Shown piece after piece: positions 1-18,479 of a DNA stretch of 18,479 bases. The position numbers and the translations under genes are program-made. Each line of letters starts with the position of its first letter. The stretch's first letter is position 1. Source of the stretch: Octopus sinensis. Lineage: Eukaryota. The stretch lies in contig NW_021824480.1 of NCBI RefSeq assembly GCF_006345805.1, positions 1 to 18,479 on the forward strand. Reading direction: 5' to 3'. The notes beneath the pieces were generated by a model that worked only from the letters and a program-made list of their open reading frames with translations, was not told where the DNA came from and did no database searches.

Positions 1-507
1 GAGAGACAAACAAACGTTGGAGTCAGGGTTTCGAATGAGACGAAACGTAGAATAACAAAAATTAAAATATATACAATTAATGAGAATGAGTGAATAACAA
101 AAAATGAAGCGGAGATACGGTTGACCACAAACCAAGACTCAACTGAAGACTTCGATTTCTCCTTTCTACATTTCGACAGGTACTTTCACTTGCAACATAG
201 CTAAGACTCCATACGAAACAATAGTGACTTTATCCATTTTCTACAATTAAAACAGGAATCGTGCATAAACCAAGCAAATAGTAGCGCAATCGTAGAACGT
301 TTGACCGCTAGACAACCACACTTAACGAACGACAGTCTTCTCCATATTCCTTTTACTTGATCATTCCCTCCGCACTTTAATTCAACATTGATATTACAAT
401 CGTTTCACTCGAACCAAGGACTCGATAACCACACTGCAGTAAAGTAGACTACGTCCTTTCTACTAGAACGATTAAACACCTTTCTGCGTACGCACACTTT
501 CGTTACA
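1..507 (-). mobile_element. LTR-like sequence (partial, runs off window) inserted into the 3' end of Tx1 ORF2
   Basis: Similarity between Tx1 copy 1 and copy 2 (KIRLEK..LS vs KIRLGKQYLSREKFEMRW) stops abruptly at ~508. The minus strand then begins TGTAACG, a typical LTR TGT start, and continues as non-coding sequence. The other end and the TSD are outside the window. Confidence 0.5.
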
Positions 508-3500
508 CACACTGCGACAGGCATCTTTCTCCAGCCTTATTTTCCGTTTCATGTGGAAAACGAAAAAGTCGATTAGCTCGAGACTGGAGATAAACAGGCC
601 TGTTGCAATTCCTTTTACTCTCGTCCTCCACACTACTTCTTTCGCCATAGCAACTACCGAAATAAACCAGGCTCGCTCCTCCCTATTCAGGAAGGTCGGC
701 GGAACTATCTTAATTACAGATTCGCTCGACAGTTGTACTCTTCTCGAATGCGACAGCAGGTGTTCGACATAAGCCCAGAGTTCAGTCACCTTCGGGCATT
801 GCACAATTGCGTGCAGGACAGTTTCACTGTCCCTCTTACATCTTGCACAAACCGGCGAAGGTGCACACCCAGGTCTAAAGAGCTTATCTCGAACCGGTAA
901 AGCTCCTTTGTAACATTGCCAGGCCAGGGACTTTTGGTAATTATCCATAGGCCCCGGACCGAATGTTCTTTGGAACAGGCTGGCCAGTTGATTTTCGTCG
1001 AAGCCCAGAGTTTCTCCTAGGACGTCGTCACACTTAAACTCTACTAACCCTCTATAGAAGAACGAGGTAGTACCCCCGCCACCGGCGTTGCCCGACTGGG
1101 AGAGAAGCACGAGTGCCTGATAGCACTCTGCATGCCACATGCCCAACCTCGGTCTACACTTGATCCATGGGTTCAGTTCGTTAAACGATGTGAACTGTGG
1201 AAATAACAGCTTGACAAACGGAGACCACACCTGCTCACCGTCCAGGTAAATCCAGAGGTGCCTAAGCCTGAGCGCATTTTTAGCCACGGCATCCCTAACC
1301 CACCCTTCAGCGGCTTTTGGCAGCAAATAGAGCGCCTTACAAGAGGTCTGCTGCCCCTCCACAAAAAGCGAAAGATCATGCGTTCCAGTTTGTTCAGCCA
1401 CGAATCGGGGCAAGGCACGACGGTCAGGCGGTAAGTGATTACAGAGGCGATAAACACTTCTGCAACCTCCGCCCTCCCTTTCAAGGACAGCTTCCGCTCA
1501 GACCATGTCTGAGTTAGGAGAGCCACCTTTCTCGCCACCTCGCTCCAGTTCTTCTCTATCTGGAGATCTGGACCTAACCAGATCCCAAGCATTTTCACCG
1601 GTCCTTCCGTCCAACGTCCTACAACGCTGTCGGAAGACATCGACTTGCCCCTCCAGGTGCCGAGTTGCAAGCCGACCGATTTATCCCGGTTGACTTTCGC
1701 TCCTGCCACCGTTTCGTAGTCCCTTAAGGCCTCACCCACCCACTGTAGGTGCTCGACTCGGGAAACGATGATGGTGATGTCGTCCGCATACGCCGAAGCT
1801 GACTTTCCACACCCTAGATCTTGCGGAGTGCCTCTCATAGTTTCCAACCTACTCAGCAACGGCTCGAGGGCCAAAACGTAGAGAAGCGGGGAGAGAGGAC
1901 ACTCTTGACGTACCGAACGTTCAAGGCTGAACGGCTCCGAAAGGAAACCATTTACCCGAACTACCGATTCGATGTTGCTGTATAAAGCGATGATCCATCC
2001 GCGGAAGGTCGGGCCGAAGCCAGCCGCCGCCAGATGCTGATGGTCCACCCTATCAAACGCTTTCGATTGGTCCTAGTAGACCATAGCCCCACTCTTGCCA
2101 GGAATCCTATTTACCCTTTCTAAGGCAAAGCGTAGAAAGTGGAGATTGTCGTGGATGGTCCTTCCAGGGATGGCGCAAGTTTGCGCCTCGCCAACAAGTT
2201 CACCCACGACCCGCGCCAACCTTTTTGCTAAGACCTTGGCCAAGATCTTCAACTCTGCGTTAAGCAGAGTGATAGGCCGGAAATTATCAATTAAATCCCC
2301 CTTGTTTGGGTCCTTTCTTAACAGCGCTACCACCCCTCGGCTCACAAACTTAGGAATTCTCCCGTTCTGCTGCCAGTTGGTGTACACGCATGCAAGTAGG
2401 TGCCCAAACAAGTCTGGCATGCTACTATAGAGTTCGTAAGGCAGATCATCGAGTCCCGGCGATTTGTCCCCGCCGCAGTCTGCCAACATATCCTCGACTT
2501 CTTTGGCTGTGATCGGCGCCTCACAAGATTCCGCGTCCGGCCTCGATAGACGCGGCGAACCGGCTAGGAACTCTGCGAGCTTCTCCCCGCGCTCCAGCTC
2601 GCCGCTCCTCCCGAATAGCTGGCGCGAAATGATCATGAAACACCTTGCACATCTCCTCGGGTTCGTTTACTAATCGACCATTTGGGCCCGTCAAGGATCG
2701 AATGGTTGAGTTGTTGCCATGCTGGCCCTCTACCACCCAGGCCCATCCGACTGCGTTGATCCCTTCCTGTCTCATTGCACGGATCTTAGCCCTGACAATG
2801 CACCCTTCATGTTTAGCTTTGAGATGTTGGTCGAGTGCTAACCTCGCCGCTAACACTTTCGATGCCCTGCCTGATCTCATTGCCTCTTCTATTGCCTTAA
2901 CTAGTTCCTTTTCTACTTTGTTTCTAGCACTAGCTAGTTCTTTGCTAAACCTAATTGACTCAAATTTGATGGCTCTTTTCAGGGCGTACCACCATTTGTT
3001 GTTGATAATGGATCCGGTTAACGCCCTCATTACTAATTGTTTAATCCGATTCCTGTAGGCTTCACAGTCCAATAGTGACTTGTTTAGCTTCCAGTAACCG
3101 GTACCTCGTCTACACATGCTATCTATGTCGAGCGTACAGGTCACTAATTTGTGATCGCTGTAGCTGACGATATGGTGTTGTGGACAGCTAAGTATTTTCT
3201 TATCTTTCCTTCTAGTTATGATTCTATCGATGTAAGATCTGGACGCCCCGTCGTTTCTTGCCCAGGTCCACGCTGGAGTGTCTGGATGGTCCAGTCTGAA
3301 TCTATCTGCCAATTCGAAACGACTTAGCATATCGTTGAGGTGAGGTAATCCCCTCCTATTCTTTCTCGAGCCAACATAATCTACGCTTGCATCGCAAATT
3401 ATGTTGAAGTCACCTAGCAATACTAACGTGTTCGACGTGCCAAGAAAATTCTCTAGGCTTTTGAAATACTCTTTCTGCCCGGCTTTTCCTTCGCAGGGAG

Positions 3501-3843
3501 CAGAGACAGCGACCAGCCTGAACACTTTACCACTTCTGTGCGTCACATCCAAAACAACCAACCTGCCTTCCGGATCTATAAAGACAGTTCTAATCTCTAA
3601 ATCCAGGTTTTTCCTGACCAGCACTGCCACTCCTCCTCCCCCTCCAGGTCGACAGGGAGAAACGTATTTCTCGTAGCCGTTTAGAAGGGGCATAAAGGCC
3701 TGCAGCCCACTCAGTCTGGATTCGGTAATTACCACTACATCCAAACGATGCGACCTAAGGTCGTTAAGGAGGTAGCCTTGCTTCCAATACGACCCCAGGC
3801 CGCGAATATTTATACAACCGAGTTTAAACGAGAATGTGAAAAA
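508..3843 (-). pseudogene. Tx1 ORF2 (APE endonuclease - reverse transcriptase - Cys-rich C-terminus), disrupted
   Basis: EN motifs: CINIRGL, VITE, LGDFN, IDRI, SDH. RT motifs: KSPG, FRPITLLN, DQSKAFDRVDH, PLSPLLY, YADD (1779-1790). Also GGLG and CARC..ETVLH..C. Disrupted by frameshifts near 2630, 1275 and 523, and by a TAG at 2073. Confidence 0.92.
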
Positions 3844-3862
3844 TTAGTCGAAAGTTTAAAAC

Positions 3863-5377
3863 TTACTGTTTTAACGGAAGAGAGGGTGTAGTTTCACCCT
3901 CCTCTTTTCTGTTTGTGAGTGTTGTGTTTTGCGAGGTCAGTTTTTTTGCGTATTGCCTGTACAGATGGCTCTATAGTATAAAATTCTACATTTTCAGAAA
4001 TAGTATTATTTACATCTGTTGCGATATATTTTTTCGGCGATTTCATTAAAATAATTTGGTCTCTTAATAGTTTATTATTTTTATTTATCGCCGTGAAGGT
4101 GTTTCTTTTTTTAATGTTAGGCGATTGTGGAGGGGTGTGTGTGCGTGTGTTGTGGGGGTATGTGTGCTTGTAGAAGCGTGGGTGTGCTTGTGGTAGGTGT
4201 GTGTGTTTGTGTGTGCTTTTTCCAGTGTGTATGTTTTTTGGCTACGTGTGAGTTAGCGACTGTATTTGTGGGTGTGGGTGTGCTTGTCTGTCTCGGAGCA
4301 TAGTCCTGTGTATCCGAAGAGGGTGGGTTTTTCCGTTTCCGTCTTCCTTTTGAGGTTCTACGGTGACCCACTCCTGGATGTTATTGTTGATGTTGTCGTC
4401 GTCGTTGTTGTTGTTGATTTCTCCCGCTGTCGGCTGAACTTCGGCAATTGGGGTGCGCGACGTGTGGCTGCTATTTCTAGCGGTGGGTGTTGTTGTCTTC
4501 GGCGTCGTGCTTGCCTTTTCGGCAGCATTTTCTTTGGCTGTCTTCTTCTTACAGCTCGACCTTATGTGGGCTTTCTCGCCACATTCGTAACATCATGGCT
4601 TTCTCCCTCGACTACTTGTGAGGGAACTGGGCACTTTTTCTAAGTCTGAGGGGTTTGCTTGGATCACAAGCTCTAAATCTTGTCCAAACCAGTTCATGTG
4701 GCGATATCTCTTAGACTGAAGAATGGCAATTTCATCCTCTTTGCCTAAGAGAATAGCGGCTATGACAAACGCCACATCTATTTCGGGTGGAATATCCGTG
4801 ACCGTTATTTTTGAAGTTCTCTTTCCTAAATAAGTCGGGAGAAGAACTACATCTTCCGACTTCAATGTCCTTGTTGAATGTTCCCTAGCTTTTTCTTCGC
4901 AAGGGAAACGCACCTCTACAGTGCCAAAGCGACTACCCCTCGTTATAAAACTTGTTTGTTGCCATATCGGCCTCAAGCATTTTTCTATGGCTTCCCTCGG
5001 CACGAAGTCAATTTTTCTATTTTTCACATGATATGTTTTGTATATTACCGTCTTCTCTCCGTCGCGTAAATTAATTCACTGGGAGGGAGCAACTTCACAT
5101 TATCACCTTCTTTTTTTAGTAAACCTTGGTATTTCTTTAATTCTTCTTTGTTAATAACTATATTATCACAGGGGCGAGTTGCTGCACTCGCAAAATTTAC
5201 TTTTGACTTTTCCTGTTGTGTAGTAGCCTCGCTAGACATCTTGTCGTCTTCTTTAGTAATGCGCGCGTGAGACGCCTCTTTACTTTTACCTTCCTCCTCC
5301 CACATTTTCGCCTTCATGCCTTCAAACAAATTTTCAAAGTTTTCCTCCGACTCGGAAGAAATTGGTGGCAAATTCAT
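3863..5377 (-). pseudogene. Tx1 ORF1 (gag-like nucleic-acid-binding protein), disrupted
   Basis: Starts MNLPPISSESE (ATG at 5377) and spans ORF pieces 5045-5509, 4593-5027 and 4117-4371. The knuckle CYECGEKAHIRSSC at 4551-4592 lies in frame right after a TGA at 4593-4595. A Thr/Pro/His-rich low-complexity tail follows. Confidence 0.8.
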
Positions 5378-5579
5378 GTTTTTCGTCGCTTCGCCCCTGA
5401 AACAAGGGGGAAAGAAGAGCAAAACTCTGCTGCAGCAGCAGAAAAGAAGGGGTCTCGACGACCAAAACAGCAAATTTTCACAATTTTCAGCACAAAAACA
5501 ATCTTTCACTGCGGAGCAAAGAATAACACGACCGATCAGAGAGAGAGCGGTAATTATTGTTTTCTTTCTCTGTTTCCCT

Positions 5580-6035
5580 TGTAACAGGATGAGAGTTCAG
5601 GAACACTGGTGGGGTGTCCGGTCTGATCTTGTCACATACAAGTTGAAGAAACGGAACCAAAGTCAGGCTGTCTTCAATAACAACAATAGTAGTTTATTCT
5701 GCGGTTCACAGGTAAAACATATACATATGTATTTCTTGTGGGGAAACTGGCAGCCGAGTCCACAGGACTGTTTACAATGTTCACTCGTGTGAGCCAAGAA
5801 GATACGGTGTTCGTTCCCGCTTCGAAGTGAGAGCTTCTCTGTGCGTAGGGTGTTCCCTGAGAGAAGTCGAGCCACGTCCGATCGCTAGCTTGCTCTGCTA
5901 GAAAGACCGATTTAGTGGTCACGCTTTCAGGTTGAAGTTCCTGCGCATGCGCACATGAGGAAACTTCTGGTGGCCAACCGGAGGTAATCCAATTCTGCGC
6001 ATGTGCACTGAAACTTACACAGAAGTGTCACTACA
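5580..6035 (-). mobile_element. Solo LTR (Gypsy-like, 456 bp)
   Basis: Minus strand starts TGTAGTG and ends GTTACA (TGTA/TACA termini). AATAAA lies at ~5693-5698 on the minus strand. Flanks CCCT (5576-5579) and CCAT (6036-6039) form a 4-bp TSD with one mismatch. Confidence 0.75.
5942..6007. promoter_or_regulatory. Two NRF1-type motifs in the LTR U3 region
   Basis: TGCGCATGCGCA (5942-5953) is a perfect palindromic consensus; TGCGCATGTGCA (5996-6007) has one mismatch. Confidence 0.5.
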
Positions 6036-7998: not shown

Positions 7999-8377
7999 TT
8001 TTACTCTTTTTACTCTTTTACTTGTTTCAGTCATTTGACTGTGGCCATGCTGGAGCACCACCTTTAGATGAGCAAATCAACCTCAGGACTTATTCTTTTG
8101 TAAGCCCAGTACTTATTCTATCGGTCTCTTTTGCTGAACTGCTAAGTTACAGCGACGTAAAACACACCAGCATCGGTTGTCAAGCAATGTTGGTGGAGAC
8201 ACACACAAACACACATATATATACATATACATATATACGATGGGCTTCTTTCAGTTTCCATCTACAAAATCCACTCACAAAGCTTTGGTCGGCCTGAGGC
8301 TATAGTAGAAACACTTGCCCAAGGTGCCACTCAGTGGGACTGAACCAGAAACCATGTGGTTGGTAAGGAAGCTACTT
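7999..8377 (-). mobile_element. tRNA-derived SINE (Octopus-type), 5' box A region missing
   Basis: Box B-like GGTTCAGTCCC (8336-8346, minus) followed by CORE-like GTGGCACCTTGGGCAAGTG (8312-8330), an internal TA/TG microsatellite and a (GTAAAAGA)n-type tail at 7999-8021. Confidence 0.8.
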
Positions 8378-11300
8378 TATTTCAATAAATTTGCCATGTA
8401 GGCATAATACAAAGGGGACAAACAAGGACAGACAAACATAGAATAGTGAAGTAGCTTAAAGCGTTGTTATGAATTGATTAAAAATATGAAAAAGGCGAAT
8501 AATTAAAAATAAAATAATATAAATACCTTGCGTTATGCAACGTGACACCGAAAGAAAGGCATCTGACATCAGGGTGGGGCCTTTGCTTTTCTTCCAGCTC
8601 TCCACATACTTGGTGCCAATCACTCCCAGCTTTCTTACCACAGGCTTCCATCTCATCTCGAATTTCTCACGTGACAGGTACTGCTTCCCCAGCCTGATCT
8701 TGCTGTTGAGGTGGTAACTAAAAATTTGACCAACCCTTAGTCAGATACAAAAGCACCCATCACAATCCCTTTCACATGTGTCTTCCATACCGTTTCTTTT
8801 AAAATGGCTACCACACCATAAAAACAGGCCTTCCTTTCCCTGCTAAGAGAAGAAAGCAGCACAATCTTGATGATGGATTCAGCTGATAGCTGTACTCTTC
8901 CCATCGATGACAACAGTCGTTCTGTGAAAGCTATCAATCCCGATAATTGCGGACATCCCACGAATGCATGCAAGATGGTTTCCCTGTCCTGCCCACATCT
9001 CGAACATGATGGTGAGGTGGCACTTCCGTGCCTTGAAAGCTTATCACGAACCAGTAACACCACATGGAAGCACTGCCAAGCAAGGGATTTCTGGTAATTA
9101 TCCAGATACCCTGTCCCGAATGTTCTCCTGAACAGGTTGATCAACTGATTTTCATCGTAGCCCAGGGTCTCCCCCAAGGCGTCTTCAGACATGAATCCCT
9201 CTAACCCACTATAAAAATCTGTGGTGGAACTTCTGCTGCCGGCATTGTCTGCCCGAGAGTGCCTTATGTCACTCCAAATGCCAATCCCCTAGTTTAGGTC
9301 TCTGCTTGATCCATGTACCAGGTTTGTTAAGGACTTTAACCTCGGAAGGTAGAACCAGACGTGCAGTTACCACACCTGTTCTCCATCCAGGTAAATCCAG
9401 AGGTGTCTCAGCTGTAACACAAATTTTTCATCCTCAGAAAAGGCATCCCTAGCTCACCCTTCAGTGGCTTCTGGCAGCAGACAGAGCGCTTCACAAGAGG
9501 CTTTCCTCCTTTCCACAGAAAGCAGAAAAAGATTCTCTCCAACTTGTTCAGCCACAAATCAGGGCAAGGCACCATGGTCAGACGGTAGGTGATAACAGAT
9601 GCTATAAACATCTACACCAACTCCACCTCCCTTAGCAAGGATAACATCTGCCCAGACTAAGTCTGGGTCAGAGCAGTCACCTTACTGGCTACCTCACTCC
9701 AATATTTCTCTATCTGGAGGTCTGGTCCAAACCAGACGCCAAAGCAGCTAACAGGACCTTCTGTCCAATGCCCTACAACATTATTGGACGTCATCGGCTT
9801 GCCTCTCCACGTGCTGAGTTGCAAACCGACTGACTTGTCCTTGTTAACCTTTGTTCCCGCCACCACCTCATAACTTTTGATGGCCTCTTCCACCACTGGA
9901 AGCTGGCTCTCATCCACCACAATGATGGAGATGTCATCCACATACACTGTAGCTCCACCTCCACACCACAGATCATTCGGTGTGCCTCCTAGTGCTTCCA
10001 GCTTCTGCAGCAATCACTCAAGAGCCAGTACATACAAAAGCGGAGACAGGGGATACCCCTGACGCACTGAGAGTTCGATCCTGAATGGTTTCGAGAAGAA
10101 TCCATTTACTTTGACTGCAGAATCGATGTTGCTGTACAAAGCAGCAATCCAACCATGGAAGGTTGGGCCTAGGCCAGCCTTTCCAAGGACTACTGCCAAG
10201 TACCGATGGTCGACCCTATCAAACGCTTTAGACTGGTCTAAATGTACCAGTGCCCCTCCTGTGCCAGAAAGATTCCCTACCCTCTCTAAGGTGTAACATT
10301 GAAGATGGAGATTGTCACGGATCAACCTGCCCGGGATCACCTTCCAGCACCTCAATCACCTCCTCGGCTGTGATTGACCCTTCACAGCACTCAGCTTCTC
10401 ACACCGAGAGACATGGGCCACCAGACAGGAAGCCCCTAAGGGCCTCATCATGATCCAGCTTCCCACTCATCCCGAACAACTCAGCAAAGTGTTCGTAAAG
10501 TGCCTCACACATCTCGTCTGTCTTTCGACTGAACTCCAACTATCATCAGTCAGAGACCTAATTGTGGCATCATTGCCACACTGGGTTTCTACCGTACGGG
10601 CTTATCTGGCAACATTAATTCAGTTATTAACCATCAGTTATTAACCACAGAGCCGGTTAACGCCTCTATACTAATTCCTTAATCTGACTACGGCATGCTT
10701 CACAAGTCAAAATAGACTTGTTCAGCTTCCAGTAACCGGATCCTCTTAACTGCACTATCTATGTTCAGCTTACACCCAACCATTCTATGGTCCGTGTGTG
10801 TAGGATACTTGAACAAGATGTGGACAAATAAAGCTAGCCTTATCTCTAGCTCTTATCACTATCCTATCTAAGTAAGACTTGAACTTTCTATCGCCATTCA
10901 TCCAGGTTCACTCTGGGACATTCAGATGGTCAAGTCTGTAACAATCCTCTAGCTGAAATCGCTTAAGCAGATCTATGAGACGTGAGTTCATTTTCCTATC
11001 AATTGAGCCAACACTGTCAATGCGTGCATCAACGAGAGCATTATTGTCACCTAACACCATTAATGTCTTTGACGTTATGAGAAAGGTCTCTAGGCGTTGA
11101 TAAAAATTTGTTTGCAATCCTCTAGCACAGGGTGCATAGATTCCGATCAACCTGAAGGATCTACCACTGTACCTCATATCAAGGACGACCAGCCCACCTT
11201 CAGAGTCCACATAGAATGTACTTATCTGCAGAGTCAAGCCTTTTCAGACAAGTACTACTACACCCCCTCGACTTCCAGTCTGGCTAGGAGACATAGTTTT

Positions 11301-12272
11301 TTCATAGCCATTCAGGAGGGGCAAGAAGGTTTTCAAACTGTCCTGCTTGGTCTCTGTAGCAACCATCACATGTATATCATGTGATCTGAGGTCATCGAGG
11401 AGGCAAGCTTGCTTCCACTTCAAGCTCAGACCATGTACATTTAAGCACCCCAAGTTAAGTGAAACCATAAACCTGGGAGAAAAAAACAAAGGCTCTACTT
11501 ACCCTTACTTGGAGATTCTGGGGCCAATCTCACCAAACGTGAGTCAAGCCTCCTCCTTTCTGTCCTTCTCCAGGCATTCGGGTTGGTCTTTGACCCTCCT
11601 GATGCCTCTCAGATGCCTATCCTTCATCTGCCTGAATAGGTTTTCCCCCATCCAGGCACGATTCATATGTGTGTCATTTAGATTCAAAAGTTCACCGTAA
11701 TGTGTTGTGGAATTTGTCCTTCCAAGTAATTGTCTTTAGAGTCATATTCGATTAAATTGTTTCTTCATTCTTTTGTGTTTTTTCTGGGGCGATGGAGTGG
11801 GGTCTTTTTTTGTTATCTGTGGTGTAGGGTTGTCCTTTTTCCCGTGGGGATGTGGGTGGGGAAGGTGCATGTAAATGTTTGCGAATTGTTGTGAATTCCC
11901 CTTTGGACATCTCCATGGTGTCGTCTGGGGATGTTGTGTTTGAAATACAAGGTGCCTCAGAAATCAGGTAGGAGGCGGTTTTTTTTTATTAATGTGGGGT
12001 TTGTGTATGCTGGGGTTGGGTTTTCATTACTTTGTTGGAGGTGGCACCACAACAGGGAGATTGGGAGCATTTGTTTTTGTGTGTGAGCTAGTGTAGGTGT
12101 GGGTTGGGGATGTTTTGAATAGTTGTGGGGACTGGTGTCTGTAAGAGTTTTTTTATCTTTTTTCTTCTTTCCTCCTCTTCTTTTTTATTCACAATCGCTT
12201 CGAATGTGACCTTTTTTTTCCACATTCGAAGCAAGTGACCTTTTTATCCTCCGCTTGAACTCAGAGGGTAAC
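8376..12272 (-). mobile_element. Second Tx1-clade LINE, 5'-truncated within ORF1, heavily decayed, with internal deletions
   Basis: Collinear with copy 1: knuckle CFECG..GHIRSDC (12191-12233), MVSLNLGCLNVHGL, GYWKLN, DQSKAFDRVDH, YVDD (9933-9944) and CSRC..ETILH..C. The 3' UTR ends in AATAAA at 8376-8381. About 100 RT codons are missing at ~10340 and about 80 linker codons at ~10620. Confidence 0.9.
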
Positions 12273-13554: not shown

Positions 13555-15601
13555 ATATTATACATACATAATACATACATACATGATGGCTGCCTCCTCG
13601 TAATCGAGTATGGCCATTGCACGAGGCTTAGTTGTTAATGGTGCTGTGATCAAATGTGACTTTTCAGTCCAGCTAAAGATCTACTATGTCTTGTACAGAA
13701 TTGGTAGCTAAAACCTTTATTGGCAATGCTGGCTGTAGTTGTAATTGGGCTTCATGTACCTTTGCATGTCGTTTTAGTCCTCCCGCCAAATCACACTCCC
13801 TTCCACATGCTTGAAAGATATGATTAGTATGGTGTGTAGCACCACCACCAGTGGCCTGGTAGTCAATCATTGGTCTTGCTTTATGACTACGAAGATGACT
13901 CTTGAGTCCAGCATTACTGAGGCAGGGTCTTTCACAGACAGTGCATTTCAACATCATAAGGAGATCTTTACTGTCTGGCAGTGCCACTGCAATGCTCTTC
14001 CTGACATCCCTCCTCGCTTTCTGATGCCCAACTCAAGATTTCTCAAAAGTAGCTGTCCCCTCATGCACAACTCTTCTCTACCTACTATGGTCAATAGCTA
14101 TGTCCTCCCATGTGTCAGGAGAGATATCCTTTTTTTTTTCATTTATGTGGAGGTTGTTCTCCTTTAGCTAACTCTCCATAAAAGAGTTGTTTTGGCATCC
14201 TTGAATCCTTCATCCTGACCAGATGACCACTCCATCTGAGCCTTCGCTTTAACACAAGAGCTTCTACACTTTCACACCGAGAGCCTTCCAATATTTGAAG
14301 ATCACTGATGCGGTCCTTCCACTTGATGCCATAGATCCGTCTGAAACAAATCTGATGGAAACGTTCCAGTTGTTTAAGGTGGTATCGATAGGTGACCCAC
14401 GTCTCGCAGGCATAGAGAAGAGAAGGGAGCACACATGCCTTGTACAACTTTATTTTTGTCTTTCTGCATATGTCTCGCGACTCCAGAGGCGCTTTTCTAC
14501 CCTTCCGAAAGCAACACTTGCTTTCCTAATTCTATGTGGAATTCATCATCCAAATTGCTATATCTATTAAATGTGCTTCCCAGGTAGACAAACTGATCAA
14601 CTACATCAAGTCGTTTAACATACACATAGATATTGGTACACTATACTGCTTACCAGGGGCAGATTGATGTATGACAACAGTTTTCTTGAGATTGACTGTC
14701 AATCCTAGGCAGTGCAAGCATCAGAGAATGCATTAAAAATGTGTTGCATATCAATCTCTGCGTGTGCTACTAGATCACAATCATCTGCATACAAAAGGTC
14801 TCTCATGATAGAGGTAAATACCTTTGTTCGCGCAAAGTGCCTGATATTAAATATGCTGCCAGAGGTTCGATAATGGATGTAAACACCGTATCTGTAGTTT
14901 CTGAATGCAATACAGAACACCATCGCAAAATATATGGCAAATAGAGTCGGTGCCAGGATATCCCCCTATTTCCATTTTGTATTGCAATGGCCTCCGACAT
15001 TTTCCCTCTAACATTCACCCTACCATTCATGTCTTCATGAAAAGACCTAACCAAAGCAAGGAACTTTTCAGGACACCCAAGTTTCTGGAGGACTTTCCAC
15101 AATGCTTTCTATTGACGGTATCAAAGGCTTTTGTCAGATCTACAAAAAACTGATACAAATCCAGACCCTGTTCCACACTTCTCCTGAAGCTGTCTAGCTG
15201 AAAAGATCATATCAGTAGTGCCACATCCCACACGAAAGCCAGATTGTCTTTCTTGAAGAACACAGTCTGCAACGTATTTCAGCAGACGATCTTTAGTACC
15301 ATGCATAAAACCTTTCCTACGACAGACAGCAATGATACTCCCCTATAATTACCCCAATCATTCCTGTTGCCCTTTCCCTTATACAGGACCACCATTACTG
15401 TATCTCTCCAGTCCTCAGGTACAGATTCACTAGTCATATCTTACCAAACAAAGAGTGAAGTTTCTGCAGAAGTTTCTCACCACCAGACTGTAACAACTCC
15501 GCATGTATGCCATCCATACCCGGAAACTTCCCATTATTCAACACTGAGACAGCCATTGCAACTTCTTCCAACTTTGGTGGTTCTGCGAGTGCTGCCTTTA
15601 T
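13555..15601 (-). mobile_element. RTE-clade LINE, 5'-truncated, decayed, with (ATGT)n tail and C-terminal C2H2 zinc fingers
   Basis: Motifs EPPKLEEV..GKFPGMDGI, PEDWRD, QSGFR..TTDMIFSARQLQEKC, LLYADD (14780-14791), LLYACETW and RLRWSGHLVRM..RMPKQLFYGEL. The 3' end runs into (ATGT)n at 13555-13585. Confidence 0.9.
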
Positions 15602-16056
15602 AACATACAATGGAAGATTTTGGCCAGATGTAAGCCCTATACCAACGGCAGCGGAAGGTGCGGTCTATGCGACATGGAGAGATGGCTTATCTGGAAAAGC
15701 AGCTTAGACCCTACTACATGTCTAAATACAAGGACAGAGCTTTTCGGATCATGCCCACGTGTGACTAAATTTCTGTTAAAGAAAACAGACAGAACATGCT
15801 TTCTATGTTATGTCCCAAGAAGAATTTATATATTTTTATATATTTTTATATATTTTTTATGCATTTTTATATAATTTTTATGACGAAAAATGCGAGCAAA
15901 CAGTGTTATAACAGAGTAATTTCCCTTTATTTAACGGTATTTTTCCTAGCGTTTTCAATAGCCAGATAACCGAAGAGTTGGTGTTGTGGATTTCCACTTC
16001 GGCATCTGAAACTCAGAGTTTTATCTTGACTACCGAGTAATGTAACATATTATTGT
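15599..16056 (+). mobile_element. Penelope-like element 3' fragment (GIY-YIG C-terminus plus pLTR/3' UTR)
   Basis: YNIQWKILARCKPYTNGSGRCGLCDMERWLI..CLNTRTELFGSCPRVTKFLL matches the PLE endonuclease tail pattern W.IL..CxLCxxE..LNxRxE..C(RH)..K. An HHR follows, then (TA)n. Confidence 0.8.
15964..16026 (+). ncRNA. Type I hammerhead ribozyme (HHR-1), core variant CCGAAGA
   Basis: Stem I AGATAA/TTATCT; core CCGAAGA (15970-15976); long stem II GGTGTTG-TGGA/TCCA-CGGCATC; GAAA (16008-16011); near-palindromic stem III ACTC-A-GAGT; GUU cleavage triplet (cut after 16020). Confidence 0.7.

Positions 16057-16120
<64 letters not shown>
16057..16120. repeat. (TA)n microsatellite
   Basis: Direct reading of the sequence. 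Confidence 0.95.
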
Positions 16121-16121
<1 letters not shown>

Positions 16122-16994
16122 GCAATTAAGGACAACTACTTAATAAGGAAAACTTAACAAGAAATTGTCAGGTAGATAGCGTAAAAACCTCATAAGAGAA
16201 AAAATTTCGAAAATAATTATTTCTTATTGAACATATTATTTATATATAGAGGGCATTAACATACATGCCAGAAGGCATTATACATACATGCCAAACGCTA
16301 AGAGGGACAATTAGTCATTTCTACCAAAAATATTACTAATCCCACCGAATGTAATTTTTCAAAGTAAGACATTTAAAAAATATAGACCTGTATCACAGTG
16401 ATTTCATACTTACGTACTCATCAGCAGGCCTGAATGTATTATAAATAAACAACGACCCTGCCCGCTTAAGCCGATCAGCTAACTGCTCAACATCAACGAA
16501 GCACATGGGTGAGTTTACATATATTACATCCGGATAAATGGCAAACTTTTAACGAATTGCATTTCGGGAGAGGAAAAGTTTTTTCGGAATAAAAATTAGC
16601 AATAAGGACAACTACTTAGTAAGGAAAACTTAACAAGAAATACAGGTCTATATTTTTTTAAATTGTCTTACTTTGAAAAATTGCATTCGGTGGGACTTAT
16701 TAGTAATATTTTGGTAGAAATGACTAATTGTCCCTCTTAGCGTTTGGCAGATGTATAATGCCTTCGCATGTATGTATAATGCCCTCTATATATAATTAAT
16801 ATGTTCAATAAGAAATAATTATTTTCGAAATTTTTTCTCTTATGAGGTTTTTACGCTATCTACCTGACAATTTCTTGTTAAGTTTTCCTTATTAAGTAGT
16901 TGTCCTTAATTGCTAAATTTTTATTCCGAAAAAACTTTTCCTCTCCCGAAATGCAATTCGTAAAAGTTTGCCATTTATCCGGATGTGTAATATA
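16121..16994. mobile_element. Non-coding HHR element (PLE pLTR / retrozyme-like): 1.1 tandem units on minus plus an inverted partial copy on plus
   Basis: 16121-16165 recurs at 16598-16641 (period 477). 16640-16914 is the reverse complement of 16121-16393, and 16915-16994 is the reverse complement of ~16520-16597. Flanked by (TA)n on both sides. Confidence 0.85.
16384..16431 (-). ncRNA. Minimal type I hammerhead ribozyme (HHR-2), intact core
   Basis: Minus strand reads AGGCCTG-CTGATGA-GTAC GTAA GTAT-GAAA-TCAC T GTGA-TA^CAGGTCT. It has a 7-bp stem I, a 4-bp stem II with a GUAA loop, a near-palindromic stem III and an AUA triplet. Predicted cut between 16391 and 16390. Confidence 0.9.
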
Positions 16995-17143
16995 AAATTT
17001 ATATATATATATATTATTATATATATATATATATATAGGTATGTATTGTATAGATATGTATGATTATATAATATATATATATATAATTATAATATATATA
17101 TATAATATAATATATATATATATGTATGTATGTGTATATATAT
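16995..17143. repeat. (TA)n / (TATG)n microsatellite
   Basis: Direct reading of the sequence. Confidence 0.9.
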
Positions 17144-17175: not shown

Positions 17176-17421
17176 ATACTAATACATACACCACCTAATA
17201 CATACTAATAATACTAATAATACTAATAATACACCAACCTATACATACACACGTCCAGACCTCTCATACGCACTAATACTCTCTATACACACACACACAC
17301 ACACCCTTATACATACTAATACATACTAATACATACACCAACCCTATACATACACACGTCCAGACCTCTCATACGCACTAATACTCTCTCATACACACAC
17401 ACACACACACCACACCCTTAT
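17176..17421. repeat. Compound tandem repeat: (TACTAATAA)n-type short units and two ~105-bp units
   Basis: ACGTCCAGACCTCTCATACGCACTAATACTCTCT occurs at 17251 and 17356. Confidence 0.85.
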
Positions 17422-17712
17422 GTTGGAGCAGGTCATTCAACCTATTATCTCCCCTAATTTCCGCTCTCGCGTCTCATGTTTGATCTTTGACTTCTGGCCG
17501 AAATCAGATCGCCATGTTGATTCGTTAGTTACTGCAAGCATTTTTTTCTCTCTTTTTCTGTGTTTTTTTTCTCTGTGTATCTTTCTGTTGAAGAGCGTAG
17601 GCTCGAAACGTTAAAGACTTGTTTTATTATATTTCCTGAGCGCCATACTAATACAATTGTTTGTTTGTGTTCCACCTGCCTTCGTCTTTTGTCTATTTTC
17701 ATAAGCTTTCCG

Positions 17713-17713
<1 letters not shown>
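17422..17713 (+). mobile_element. Penelope-like pLTR fragment (non-coding) ending in (TA)n
   Basis: Carries a minimal HHR-like fold with pyrimidine-rich flanks, and its 3' end joins directly to (TA)n. Confidence 0.6.
17580..17617 (+). ncRNA. Minimal hammerhead-like ribozyme (HHR-3), variant core CTGTTGAA
   Basis: TCTTT-CTGTTGAA-GAGC GTAG GCTC-GAAA-CG-TT^AAAGA. Stem I TCTTT/AAAGA, stem II GAGC/GCTC, palindromic stem III ACGT, GUU triplet. Confidence 0.7.
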
Positions 17714-18050: not shown

Positions 18051-18479
18051 CTAAAATTACCATTACATATAAATTTATATATATAAATACATACATTCAT
18101 ACATATACACGTGTAGATACCCACATACGCATATATACTATCTAAAACAAAATGAAAACCTGTTTAAGTCCAAAGGGCAGTACTAGATATTGTTAGTAAT
18201 TTATATAGTTGTGGGGTGTAATTAAATGTGAATTATAAGCTAGTCAATGTTTATTCGTTTAAGTTAGCAGCAGAAAAGTTGTATGTGTGTGTTTGTCTCT
18301 TCCTGTGCGAATGCAAGTGTGTTCTTCGCAAGCGAAAAACAAACACACTTAAATATTTAACTTTCATGTCTTTTTTTTATAGGATTAAGGGAAATAACTC
18401 TAAAATATATTGTAGTTATCTCCCGTGATTATTTAATTAAGAGAATACACATATTTCTCGATGTTTTCTGTTTTACTTT

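What the first reader, a model, noticed from the sequence alone, without database searches (positions are those of the whole stretch)
16121..16994. Non-coding ~477-nt hammerhead unit, circularly permuted, fused to an inverted copy that begins at the ribozyme cleavage site
Seen: the minus-strand arm (16641->16121) is one full 477-nt unit plus a ~44-nt terminal redundancy, with an intact HHR (16384-16431) and no ORF. The plus-strand arm starts ATACAGGTCT at 16640, so its 5' end lies within 1-3 nt of the predicted cut (AUA^CAGGUCU). It joins the other arm through a 2-nt AT microhomology and reads through the unit junction to 16994. Both 3' ends run into (TA)n. Known: PLE pLTRs and non-LTR retrozymes carry type I HHRs, and retrozymes form monomeric circular RNAs. 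Inference: this is a small non-autonomous retrozyme-like element copied from a circular or multimeric RNA (permuted arm) and from a self-cleaved linear monomer (inverted arm). It would be a genomic record of in vivo self-cleavage.
Basis: partly seen in the sequence, partly recalled or inferred. Interest (0 to 1): 0.82.

Follow-up and report, generated by a model that had tools for sequence, protein, structure and literature searches.

The report
Hammerhead retrozyme with inverted Penelope-style copy
This is a copy of an abundant, non-coding repeat of about 480 bases that carries a predicted self-cutting RNA motif and sits in a TA microsatellite beside an inverted partial copy, a layout already known for Penelope-like jumping genes, whose enzyme likely inserted it; the inverted copy starts next to the predicted cut site, but one locus cannot show that the RNA was actually cut.

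Summary
The anatomy is real. The minus arm (16641->16122) is a 476-nt unit plus a 44-nt redundancy and holds a type I hammerhead (16431-16384). The plus arm (16640-16994) starts 1-3 nt before the predicted cut, and both 3' ends run into (TA)n. Public contigs show an abundant family; the head-to-tail joint appears in 3 of 4 runs laid, and there is no ORF. It fits a non-LTR retrozyme, a non-autonomous Penelope-like (PLE) derivative. Partial tandem, inverted 5'-truncated partner and (TA)n target are published PLE hallmarks, so neither a circle nor cleavage is needed. 'Record of self-cleavage' is not shown. The arm keeps the 3 nt upstream of the cut, which an uncut template explains letter for letter. 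Family depth shows no step at the cut, and the one inversion joint listed lies elsewhere. The window also looks like noisy long-read sequence (arms differ by 12 indel events and 2 substitutions). The proximity (about 1.5% by chance) leaves cleavage at about 20%. This locus's own junction was not independently seen. Stem III is palindromic and predicted to favour dimer cleavage. New member of a known kind.

The parts
16122..16641 (-). Arm 1: a 44-nt 5'-truncated piece followed by one full 476-nt unit (partial tandem); its 3' end merges into (TA)n through a 2-nt TA overlap
16598..16641 (-). 44-nt redundancy (pLTR-like), repeat of 16122-16165; covers most of a predicted terminal hairpin (-11.6 kcal/mol)
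16384..16431 (-). Type I hammerhead motif; predicted cut between 16391 and 16390 (AUA^C); palindromic stem III at 16402-16392, predicted to favour a dimer
16640..16994 (+). Arm 2: inverted 5'-truncated copy, starting 1-3 nt before the cut and reading through the unit joint at about 16914
16914..16994 (+). About 80-nt 3' extension of arm 2 past the point where arm 1 ends (tail-like); ends at a TA-rich patch of the unit
16640..16641 (.). Head-to-head junction with a 2-nt AT overlap; the only CAGGT of the + strand unit lies 3 nt past the equivalent position (16169), giving an imperfect longer match
16047..16121 (.). Left (TA)n target tract
16995..17143 (.). Right degenerate (TA)n target tract

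Best explanation
It is a dispersed copy of an abundant, non-coding, hammerhead-bearing head-to-tail repeat (a non-LTR retrozyme), likely inserted into a (TA)n tract by the enzyme of an autonomous Penelope-like element, likely from RNA that was not cut at the hammerhead. Shown: the unit, its head-to-tail joint in independent runs, the motif, the head-to-head layout and the (TA)n flanks. Inferred: the endonuclease nicked both strands of the (TA)n tract; each strand primed reverse transcription at one of two TA-ending sites about 80 nt apart on tandem (or circular) RNA; cDNA 1 ran 520 nt through an intact hammerhead; cDNA 2 ran 355 nt and stopped 1-3 nt past the cut site; the two cDNA ends were joined through AT, possibly helped by the nearby CAGGT match. 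The palindromic stem III is predicted to make cleavage depend on a second hammerhead, which would let uncut templates persist.
For: Layout. Family abundance: 3757, 1052 and 1081 contigs laid in X1, X3 and X7 with summed word depth of about 2-7 x 10^5 (the tool warns this is no copy number, so high copy number is my inference). Joint 16597->16122/16123 in X1, X3 and X8, none listed in X7. No ORF; GC 33%; circular fold z -4.5, 0 of 60 shuffles as stable. The only differences listed within 16384-16431 are at 16417 (G.U to A-U in stem II, pairing kept, 22-57% in three runs) and a minor one at 16431 in X7. Double-hammerhead fold -30.5 against -18.8 for two active monomers and -24.8 for two inactive folds. 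Craig 2021 (PMC8557442): partial tandems, an adjacent inverted 5'-truncated copy, tails and (TA)n bias are standard for EN+ PLEs. Frangieh 2024 (PMC11167929): a PLE protein cuts and extends both strands of AT-rich DNA, starts at two internal sites, uses mainly unprocessed RNA, and no RNA-seq reads began or ended at the cut. The left (TA)n tract follows the 3' end of another PLE-type element.
Against: No autonomous partner was found (no genome). A 5' end within 3 nt of the cut has only about 1.5% chance if ends are uniform, and my assumed likelihood ratios mostly favour cleavage (0.5-48; 16 of 18 settings above 1). The extended junction match is not rare (score reached by 6% of 6000 random pairs). 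This locus's junction was not listed in 4 runs. Rfam support is below the gathering score, and stem III has pairing probability 0.01-0.02 in the monomer circle. No target-site duplication can be read in (TA)n.
Confidence: 0.67

Rival explanations
1. Same element and enzyme, but arm 2 was copied from a self-cleaved RNA, so reverse transcription ran off the 5'-OH end and one A was added; a variant is stalling at a re-ligated junction of a circle.
For: 5' end at -3 to -1 of the cut, about 1.5% by chance; likelihood ratio 0.5-48 under assumed parameters. Metazoan retrozymes do self-cleave and give linear and circular monomers (PMC7229834). The 1.6 indels per 100 nt noise level could add one A.
Against: The ATA upstream of the cut is present and matches the uncut template. 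Joining through the 5-nt CAGGT match would have kept TGT, which is absent. No depth step or pile-up at the cut; the one listed inversion joint is at 16245/16289 (weak tests). No reads at the cut for the anole PLE. The locus was picked from a large scan because of this coincidence.
Confidence: 0.2
2. The arms are 5'-truncated terminal pieces (pLTR) of a coding PLE, not a self-standing non-coding unit.
For: Most PLE insertions are 5'-truncated. Depth across the joint is low (1,113, 15,368 and 1,044 at 16598 against 1.6-5.3 x 10^5 just before), so other continuations may exist; 121 loose ends were not shown.
Against: Both arms and contigs of 3 of 4 runs close the unit on itself with no room for an ORF. 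No listed loose end points consistently to a coding continuation. The low joint depth is confounded by two private deletions in the window and by competing placement at 16122.
Confidence: 0.07
3. The inversion is a long-read chimera or consensus artefact.
For: Indel-dominated differences between the arms (12 gaps, 2 mismatches) and in a nearby 105-nt tandem (4 gaps, 0 mismatches) point to unpolished long-read sequence. The junction was not listed in 4 runs.
Against: A fold-back would be symmetric and mirror the flanks; here about 250 nt are unpaired and the flanks differ. Arm 2 ends independently in (TA)n and carries family letters that arm 1 lacks (16352, 16258, 16602). The layout matches a known PLE pattern.
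Confidence: 0.06

Closest known systems
Metazoan non-LTR retrozymes (Cervera and de la Pena 2020, PMC7229834; Li, Clavereau and Pollet 2026, bioRxiv 10.64898/2026.07.22.740005)
   Same: Non-coding, low-GC, highly self-paired head-to-tail unit with a type I hammerhead; abundant; monomeric dispersed copies are described; proposed to be PLE-derived and PLE-mobilised.
   Different: Larger than the 170-400 nt of Cervera 2020 but within the 51-972 bp of Li 2026. This locus has one hammerhead, so it is not an 'active' dimer by Li's rule. Neither paper, in the parts read, describes an inverted partner for retrozyme copies.
EN+ Penelope-like element insertions (Craig 2021, PMC8557442; Frangieh 2024, PMC11167929; Cervera 2014, PMC4209133)
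   Same: Partial tandem (pLTR), inverted 5'-truncated copy at the 5' end, staggered 3' ends, (TA)n target, type I hammerhead with palindromic stem III; opposite-strand hammerhead pairs 100-700 bp apart were noted in Schistosoma.
   Different: No RT or GIY-YIG ORF; the 3' stagger is about 80 nt against the usual 30-40 bp tail.
L1 twin-priming 5' inversions (recalled; one search listed no PLE-specific paper)
   Same: Two cDNAs primed from opposite target strands and joined head to head by microhomology.
   Different: No poly(A) or target-site duplication; the arms overlap extensively because the template is repetitive.

Membership tests
Non-LTR retrozyme | Type I hammerhead in the unit | tested here: met
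   Core and three helices parsed; Rfam HH9 only 16.6 bits, below the gathering score of 52
Non-LTR retrozyme | Non-coding | tested here: met
   Longest stop-free stretch 51 codons, longest ATG frame 37 (the window has indel noise)
Non-LTR retrozyme | Head-to-tail repeat unit | tested here: met
   Joint in both arms and in X1, X3 and X8, not listed in X7
Non-LTR retrozyme | Small, GC under 45%, stable fold | tested here: met
   476 nt, GC 33%, circular MFE z -4.5; linear z -4.06
Non-LTR retrozyme | Two consecutive units with complete hammerheads ('active' array, Li 2026) | tested here: inconclusive
   Not met at this locus (one motif); family level unknown, as no genome is held and no listed contig spans the stretch
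Non-LTR retrozyme | Self-cleavage and monomeric circular RNA in vivo | not testable with these tools
   Only contigs were served; X8 is a guessed RNA run
Autonomous EN+ PLE | RT plus GIY-YIG ORF | tested here: not met
   No ORF in the unit
PLE-type insertion | Partial tandem and adjacent inverted 5'-truncated copy | tested here: met
   pattern
PLE-type insertion | (TA)n target | tested here: met
PLE-type insertion | 30-40 bp tail between two fixed start sites | tested here: inconclusive
   3' ends are about 80 nt apart; whether the sites are fixed could not be counted
PLE-type insertion | Sequence shared with the pLTR of an autonomous partner | not testable with these tools
   No genome; the neighbouring PLE fragment shares no sequence beyond a 19-nt hit at E 0.096

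The most novel reading that the evidence does not exclude
A retrozyme family with apparently thousands of copies is inserted by a Penelope enzyme priming on both target strands, and one cDNA ended at the 5'-OH end left by hammerhead cleavage (or at the re-ligated joint of a circle). Genomic copies would then record in vivo self-cleavage and show that cut monomers are transposition templates.
Probability: 0.2. Interest if true: 0.65.

Novelty: new member of a known kind. Interest (0 to 1): 0.3.

Why it matters
The link between retrozymes and Penelope-like elements rests so far on co-occurrence and pLTR phylogeny (Li 2026, parts read). A retrozyme copy with the full PLE insertion signature is structural support that the PLE enzyme moves it. 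An abundant family would let one count 5' and 3' endpoints and ask whether the hammerhead shapes the template, which is open (Craig 2021: function unclear; Frangieh 2024: cleavage not needed in vitro). One noisy locus does not answer that.

Tried and rejected
No genome is held, so the endpoint census could not be run. Pattern scans found 0 matches in metagenome contigs and viral contigs. No RNA holder on record was listed among 24 runs; X8 is only a guessed RNA run, so its 8 contigs and joint are not taken as evidence of expression or of a circle. I laid 4 of the 24 runs, on arm 1 only; absence of this locus's junction from contigs is not evidence of absence. Contig depth was tried as an endpoint test and shows no step, but it is coarse (values swing up to about sevenfold between bins in X1, more in X7). 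Joining through the 5-nt CAGGT match from a cleaved end was rejected because it predicts TGT at the junction. A structural stall at the hammerhead was considered; the stop lies past stem I in a predicted unpaired loop, so it has no clear support. The word-index homolog search of the neighbouring protein fragment found nothing, and cluster look-ups gave no names. Earlier scan findings by sequence and by genome gave nothing. Paper searches listed no paper whose title or abstract start concerns inverted arms starting at a hammerhead cut or cephalopod retrozymes; the library lacks most subscription journals, and supplements were not read.

Full report
Observation. The layout is as described. Self-BLAST gives 16640-16924 as the inverse of 16393-16111 (93%), 16870-16994 as the inverse of 16641-16520 (95%), and a 44-45-nt direct repeat at 16121-16165 and 16597-16641. 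The period is 476 in the window. Read on the hammerhead strand, arm 1 is a 44-nt piece followed by one unit; arm 2 is the 3' part of a unit plus about 80 nt of the next. Both unit joints therefore occur twice. The 5' ends meet at 16640-16641 and both 3' ends run into (TA)n. No frame exceeds 51 codons.

Hammerhead. 16431-16384 parses as a 7-bp stem I, CUGAUGA, a 4-bp stem II, GAAA, stem III and AUA, with the cut between 16391 and 16390. My descriptor hit this site and one at 17585, and nothing in 100 block-shuffled windows. Rfam support is weak: no hammerhead at E<=1 in the whole window, and HH9 at 16.6 bits against a gathering score of 52 on the short stretch. In the circularised unit stems I and II pair with probability 0.90-0.99 but stem III with 0.01-0.02. 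Stem III is a palindrome; a double hammerhead scores -30.5 against -18.8 for two active monomers and -24.8 for two inactive folds. Cervera 2014 (PMC4209133; parts 1-2 of 4 read) describes such palindromic, dimer-dependent motifs in metazoan PLEs, with low activity in vitro. Cleavage is predicted, not shown.

Family. Twenty of 24 listed runs hold part of the stretch, from 9 studies. I laid 4 runs, all contigs, on arm 1: 3757, 1052, 1081 and 8 contigs. Summed word depth in the three large runs is about 2-7 x 10^5, while listed single contigs run from about ten to several hundred; the tool warns this is no copy number, so 'thousands of copies' is inference. The head-to-tail joint appears in X1, X3 and X8 but is not listed for X7. 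Within the motif the only common change is at 16417, which turns a G.U into an A-U pair in stem II; a minor change at 16431 occurs in X7. Depth across the joint is low, which may mean most copies are monomers, but two private deletions in the window and competing placement confound this.

Sequence quality. The arms differ by 2 mismatches and 12 gap events in 366 columns, and a nearby 105-nt tandem by 4 gaps and 0 mismatches. Arm 2 has the family letter where arm 1 deviates (16352, 16258, 16602), and has private indels of its own. I infer unpolished long-read sequence and two nearly identical arms from one event. Arguments at 1-3 nt are at the limit of this accuracy. A simple fold-back is unlikely, since about 250 nt are unpaired and the flanks are unrelated, but this junction was not listed in the 4 runs.

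Is the junction a cleavage record? For it: a 5' end within 3 nt of the cut has about 1.5% chance if ends are uniform. Against it: the arm keeps the ATA in front of the cut, which an uncut template gives letter for letter with a 2-nt overlap, whereas a cut template needs an added A and a chance AT match. The only CAGGT of the + strand unit lies 3 nt past the end of arm 1; joining a cut end through it would retain TGT, which is absent, while an uncut end pairs through AT and CAGGT together (a match reached by 6% of 6000 random pairs). With assumed parameters the likelihood ratio for cleavage is 0.5-48, above 1 in 16 of 18 settings, and the posterior 0.01-0.95 depending on the prior: undecided. 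Family depth shows no step at the cut (ratios 0.98, 1.08, 1.33), no pile-up is listed, and the one strand-switch joint is at 16245/16289 in X3; all are weak tests. Frangieh 2024 found no reads beginning or ending at the cut and no need for cleavage. Four unchecked notes from other genomes report no clear role of the cut site; they are leads only and lowered my prior slightly. I put cleavage at about 0.2.

Context. 15599-15784 (+) encodes a 62-residue stretch with 365 relatives at E<=0.001. Four of 12 scanned relatives have weak GIY-YIG hits below Pfam's cut-off, one is MBD, one fn3 and six have nothing relevant; P0132 aligns at 45% over 58 residues and shows RT-like motifs upstream by eye. I read this as the 3' end of a PLE (the clade resemblance is recalled), followed by a hammerhead-like motif at about 15965-16026 seen by eye (my descriptor did not accept it). 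The tract thus looks like a repeated PLE landing site. The host looks like an octopus from a SINE near 8020-8370; this is recalled and untested.

Comparison. Craig 2021 (PMC8557442; 12 of 20 passages) lists partial tandems, an inverted 5'-truncated copy, tails and (TA)n bias as PLE features. Frangieh 2024 (PMC11167929; parts 1-2 of 4) shows both-strand cutting and extension and two internal start sites. Cervera 2020 (PMC7229834; passages and sections 14 and 17) defines non-LTR retrozymes and their circles. Li 2026 (bioRxiv; parts 1-3 of 5) argues they are non-autonomous PLE derivatives, with units of 51-972 bp; 1 of 9 dimers cleaved in vitro. PMC13282606 (passages; supplement listed, not read) reports recently active PLE families in Octopus vulgaris and does not mention retrozymes in its main text. 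Repeat libraries in supplements I did not see may already hold this family.

Verdict. Real, and best read as a PLE-mobilised retrozyme copy with the standard inverted partner (0.67). New member of a known kind; interest 0.3. The self-cleavage record stays possible (0.2) and is testable by an endpoint census.

Noticed in passing
window 15599-16046 (+): 3' end of a probable PLE: a 62-residue GIY-YIG-like C-terminus and a hammerhead-like motif at about 15965-16026 (6-bp stem I, altered core, long stem II), ending in the same (TA)n tract.
   Followed up: partly
window 17408-17713 (+): A further non-coding piece ending in (TA)n with a minimal hammerhead at 17580-17618 (palindromic, loop-less stem III, one core change); probably another PLE end.
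   Followed up: partly
window 17211-17411: 105-nt unit in 1.9 tandem copies differing only by single-base gaps.
   Followed up: partly
window 472-5596 (-) and about 8500-11480 (-): Two frameshifted non-LTR retrotransposon copies, 70-75% alike; the first has AP endonuclease, RT and zf-RVT domains and upstream ORF1-like frames.
   Followed up: partly
window 13650-15400 (-): Fragments that look like an RTE-type LINE (recalled motifs; no Pfam hit for the piece scanned).
   Followed up: no
window 8020-8370: SINE-like sequence that I recall as typical of octopus genomes; not tested.
   Followed up: no
window 18290-18345: Stable hairpin (minus strand z -4.2) of unknown nature.
   Followed up: no
X3 joint 16245/16289: Another family copy with a strand switch, at a 23-nt internal repeat region and away from the cut site.
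   Followed up: no
X7 at 16396 and 16533-16535: A divergent subfamily, including a hammerhead variant with a G-C first pair in stem II.
   Followed up: no
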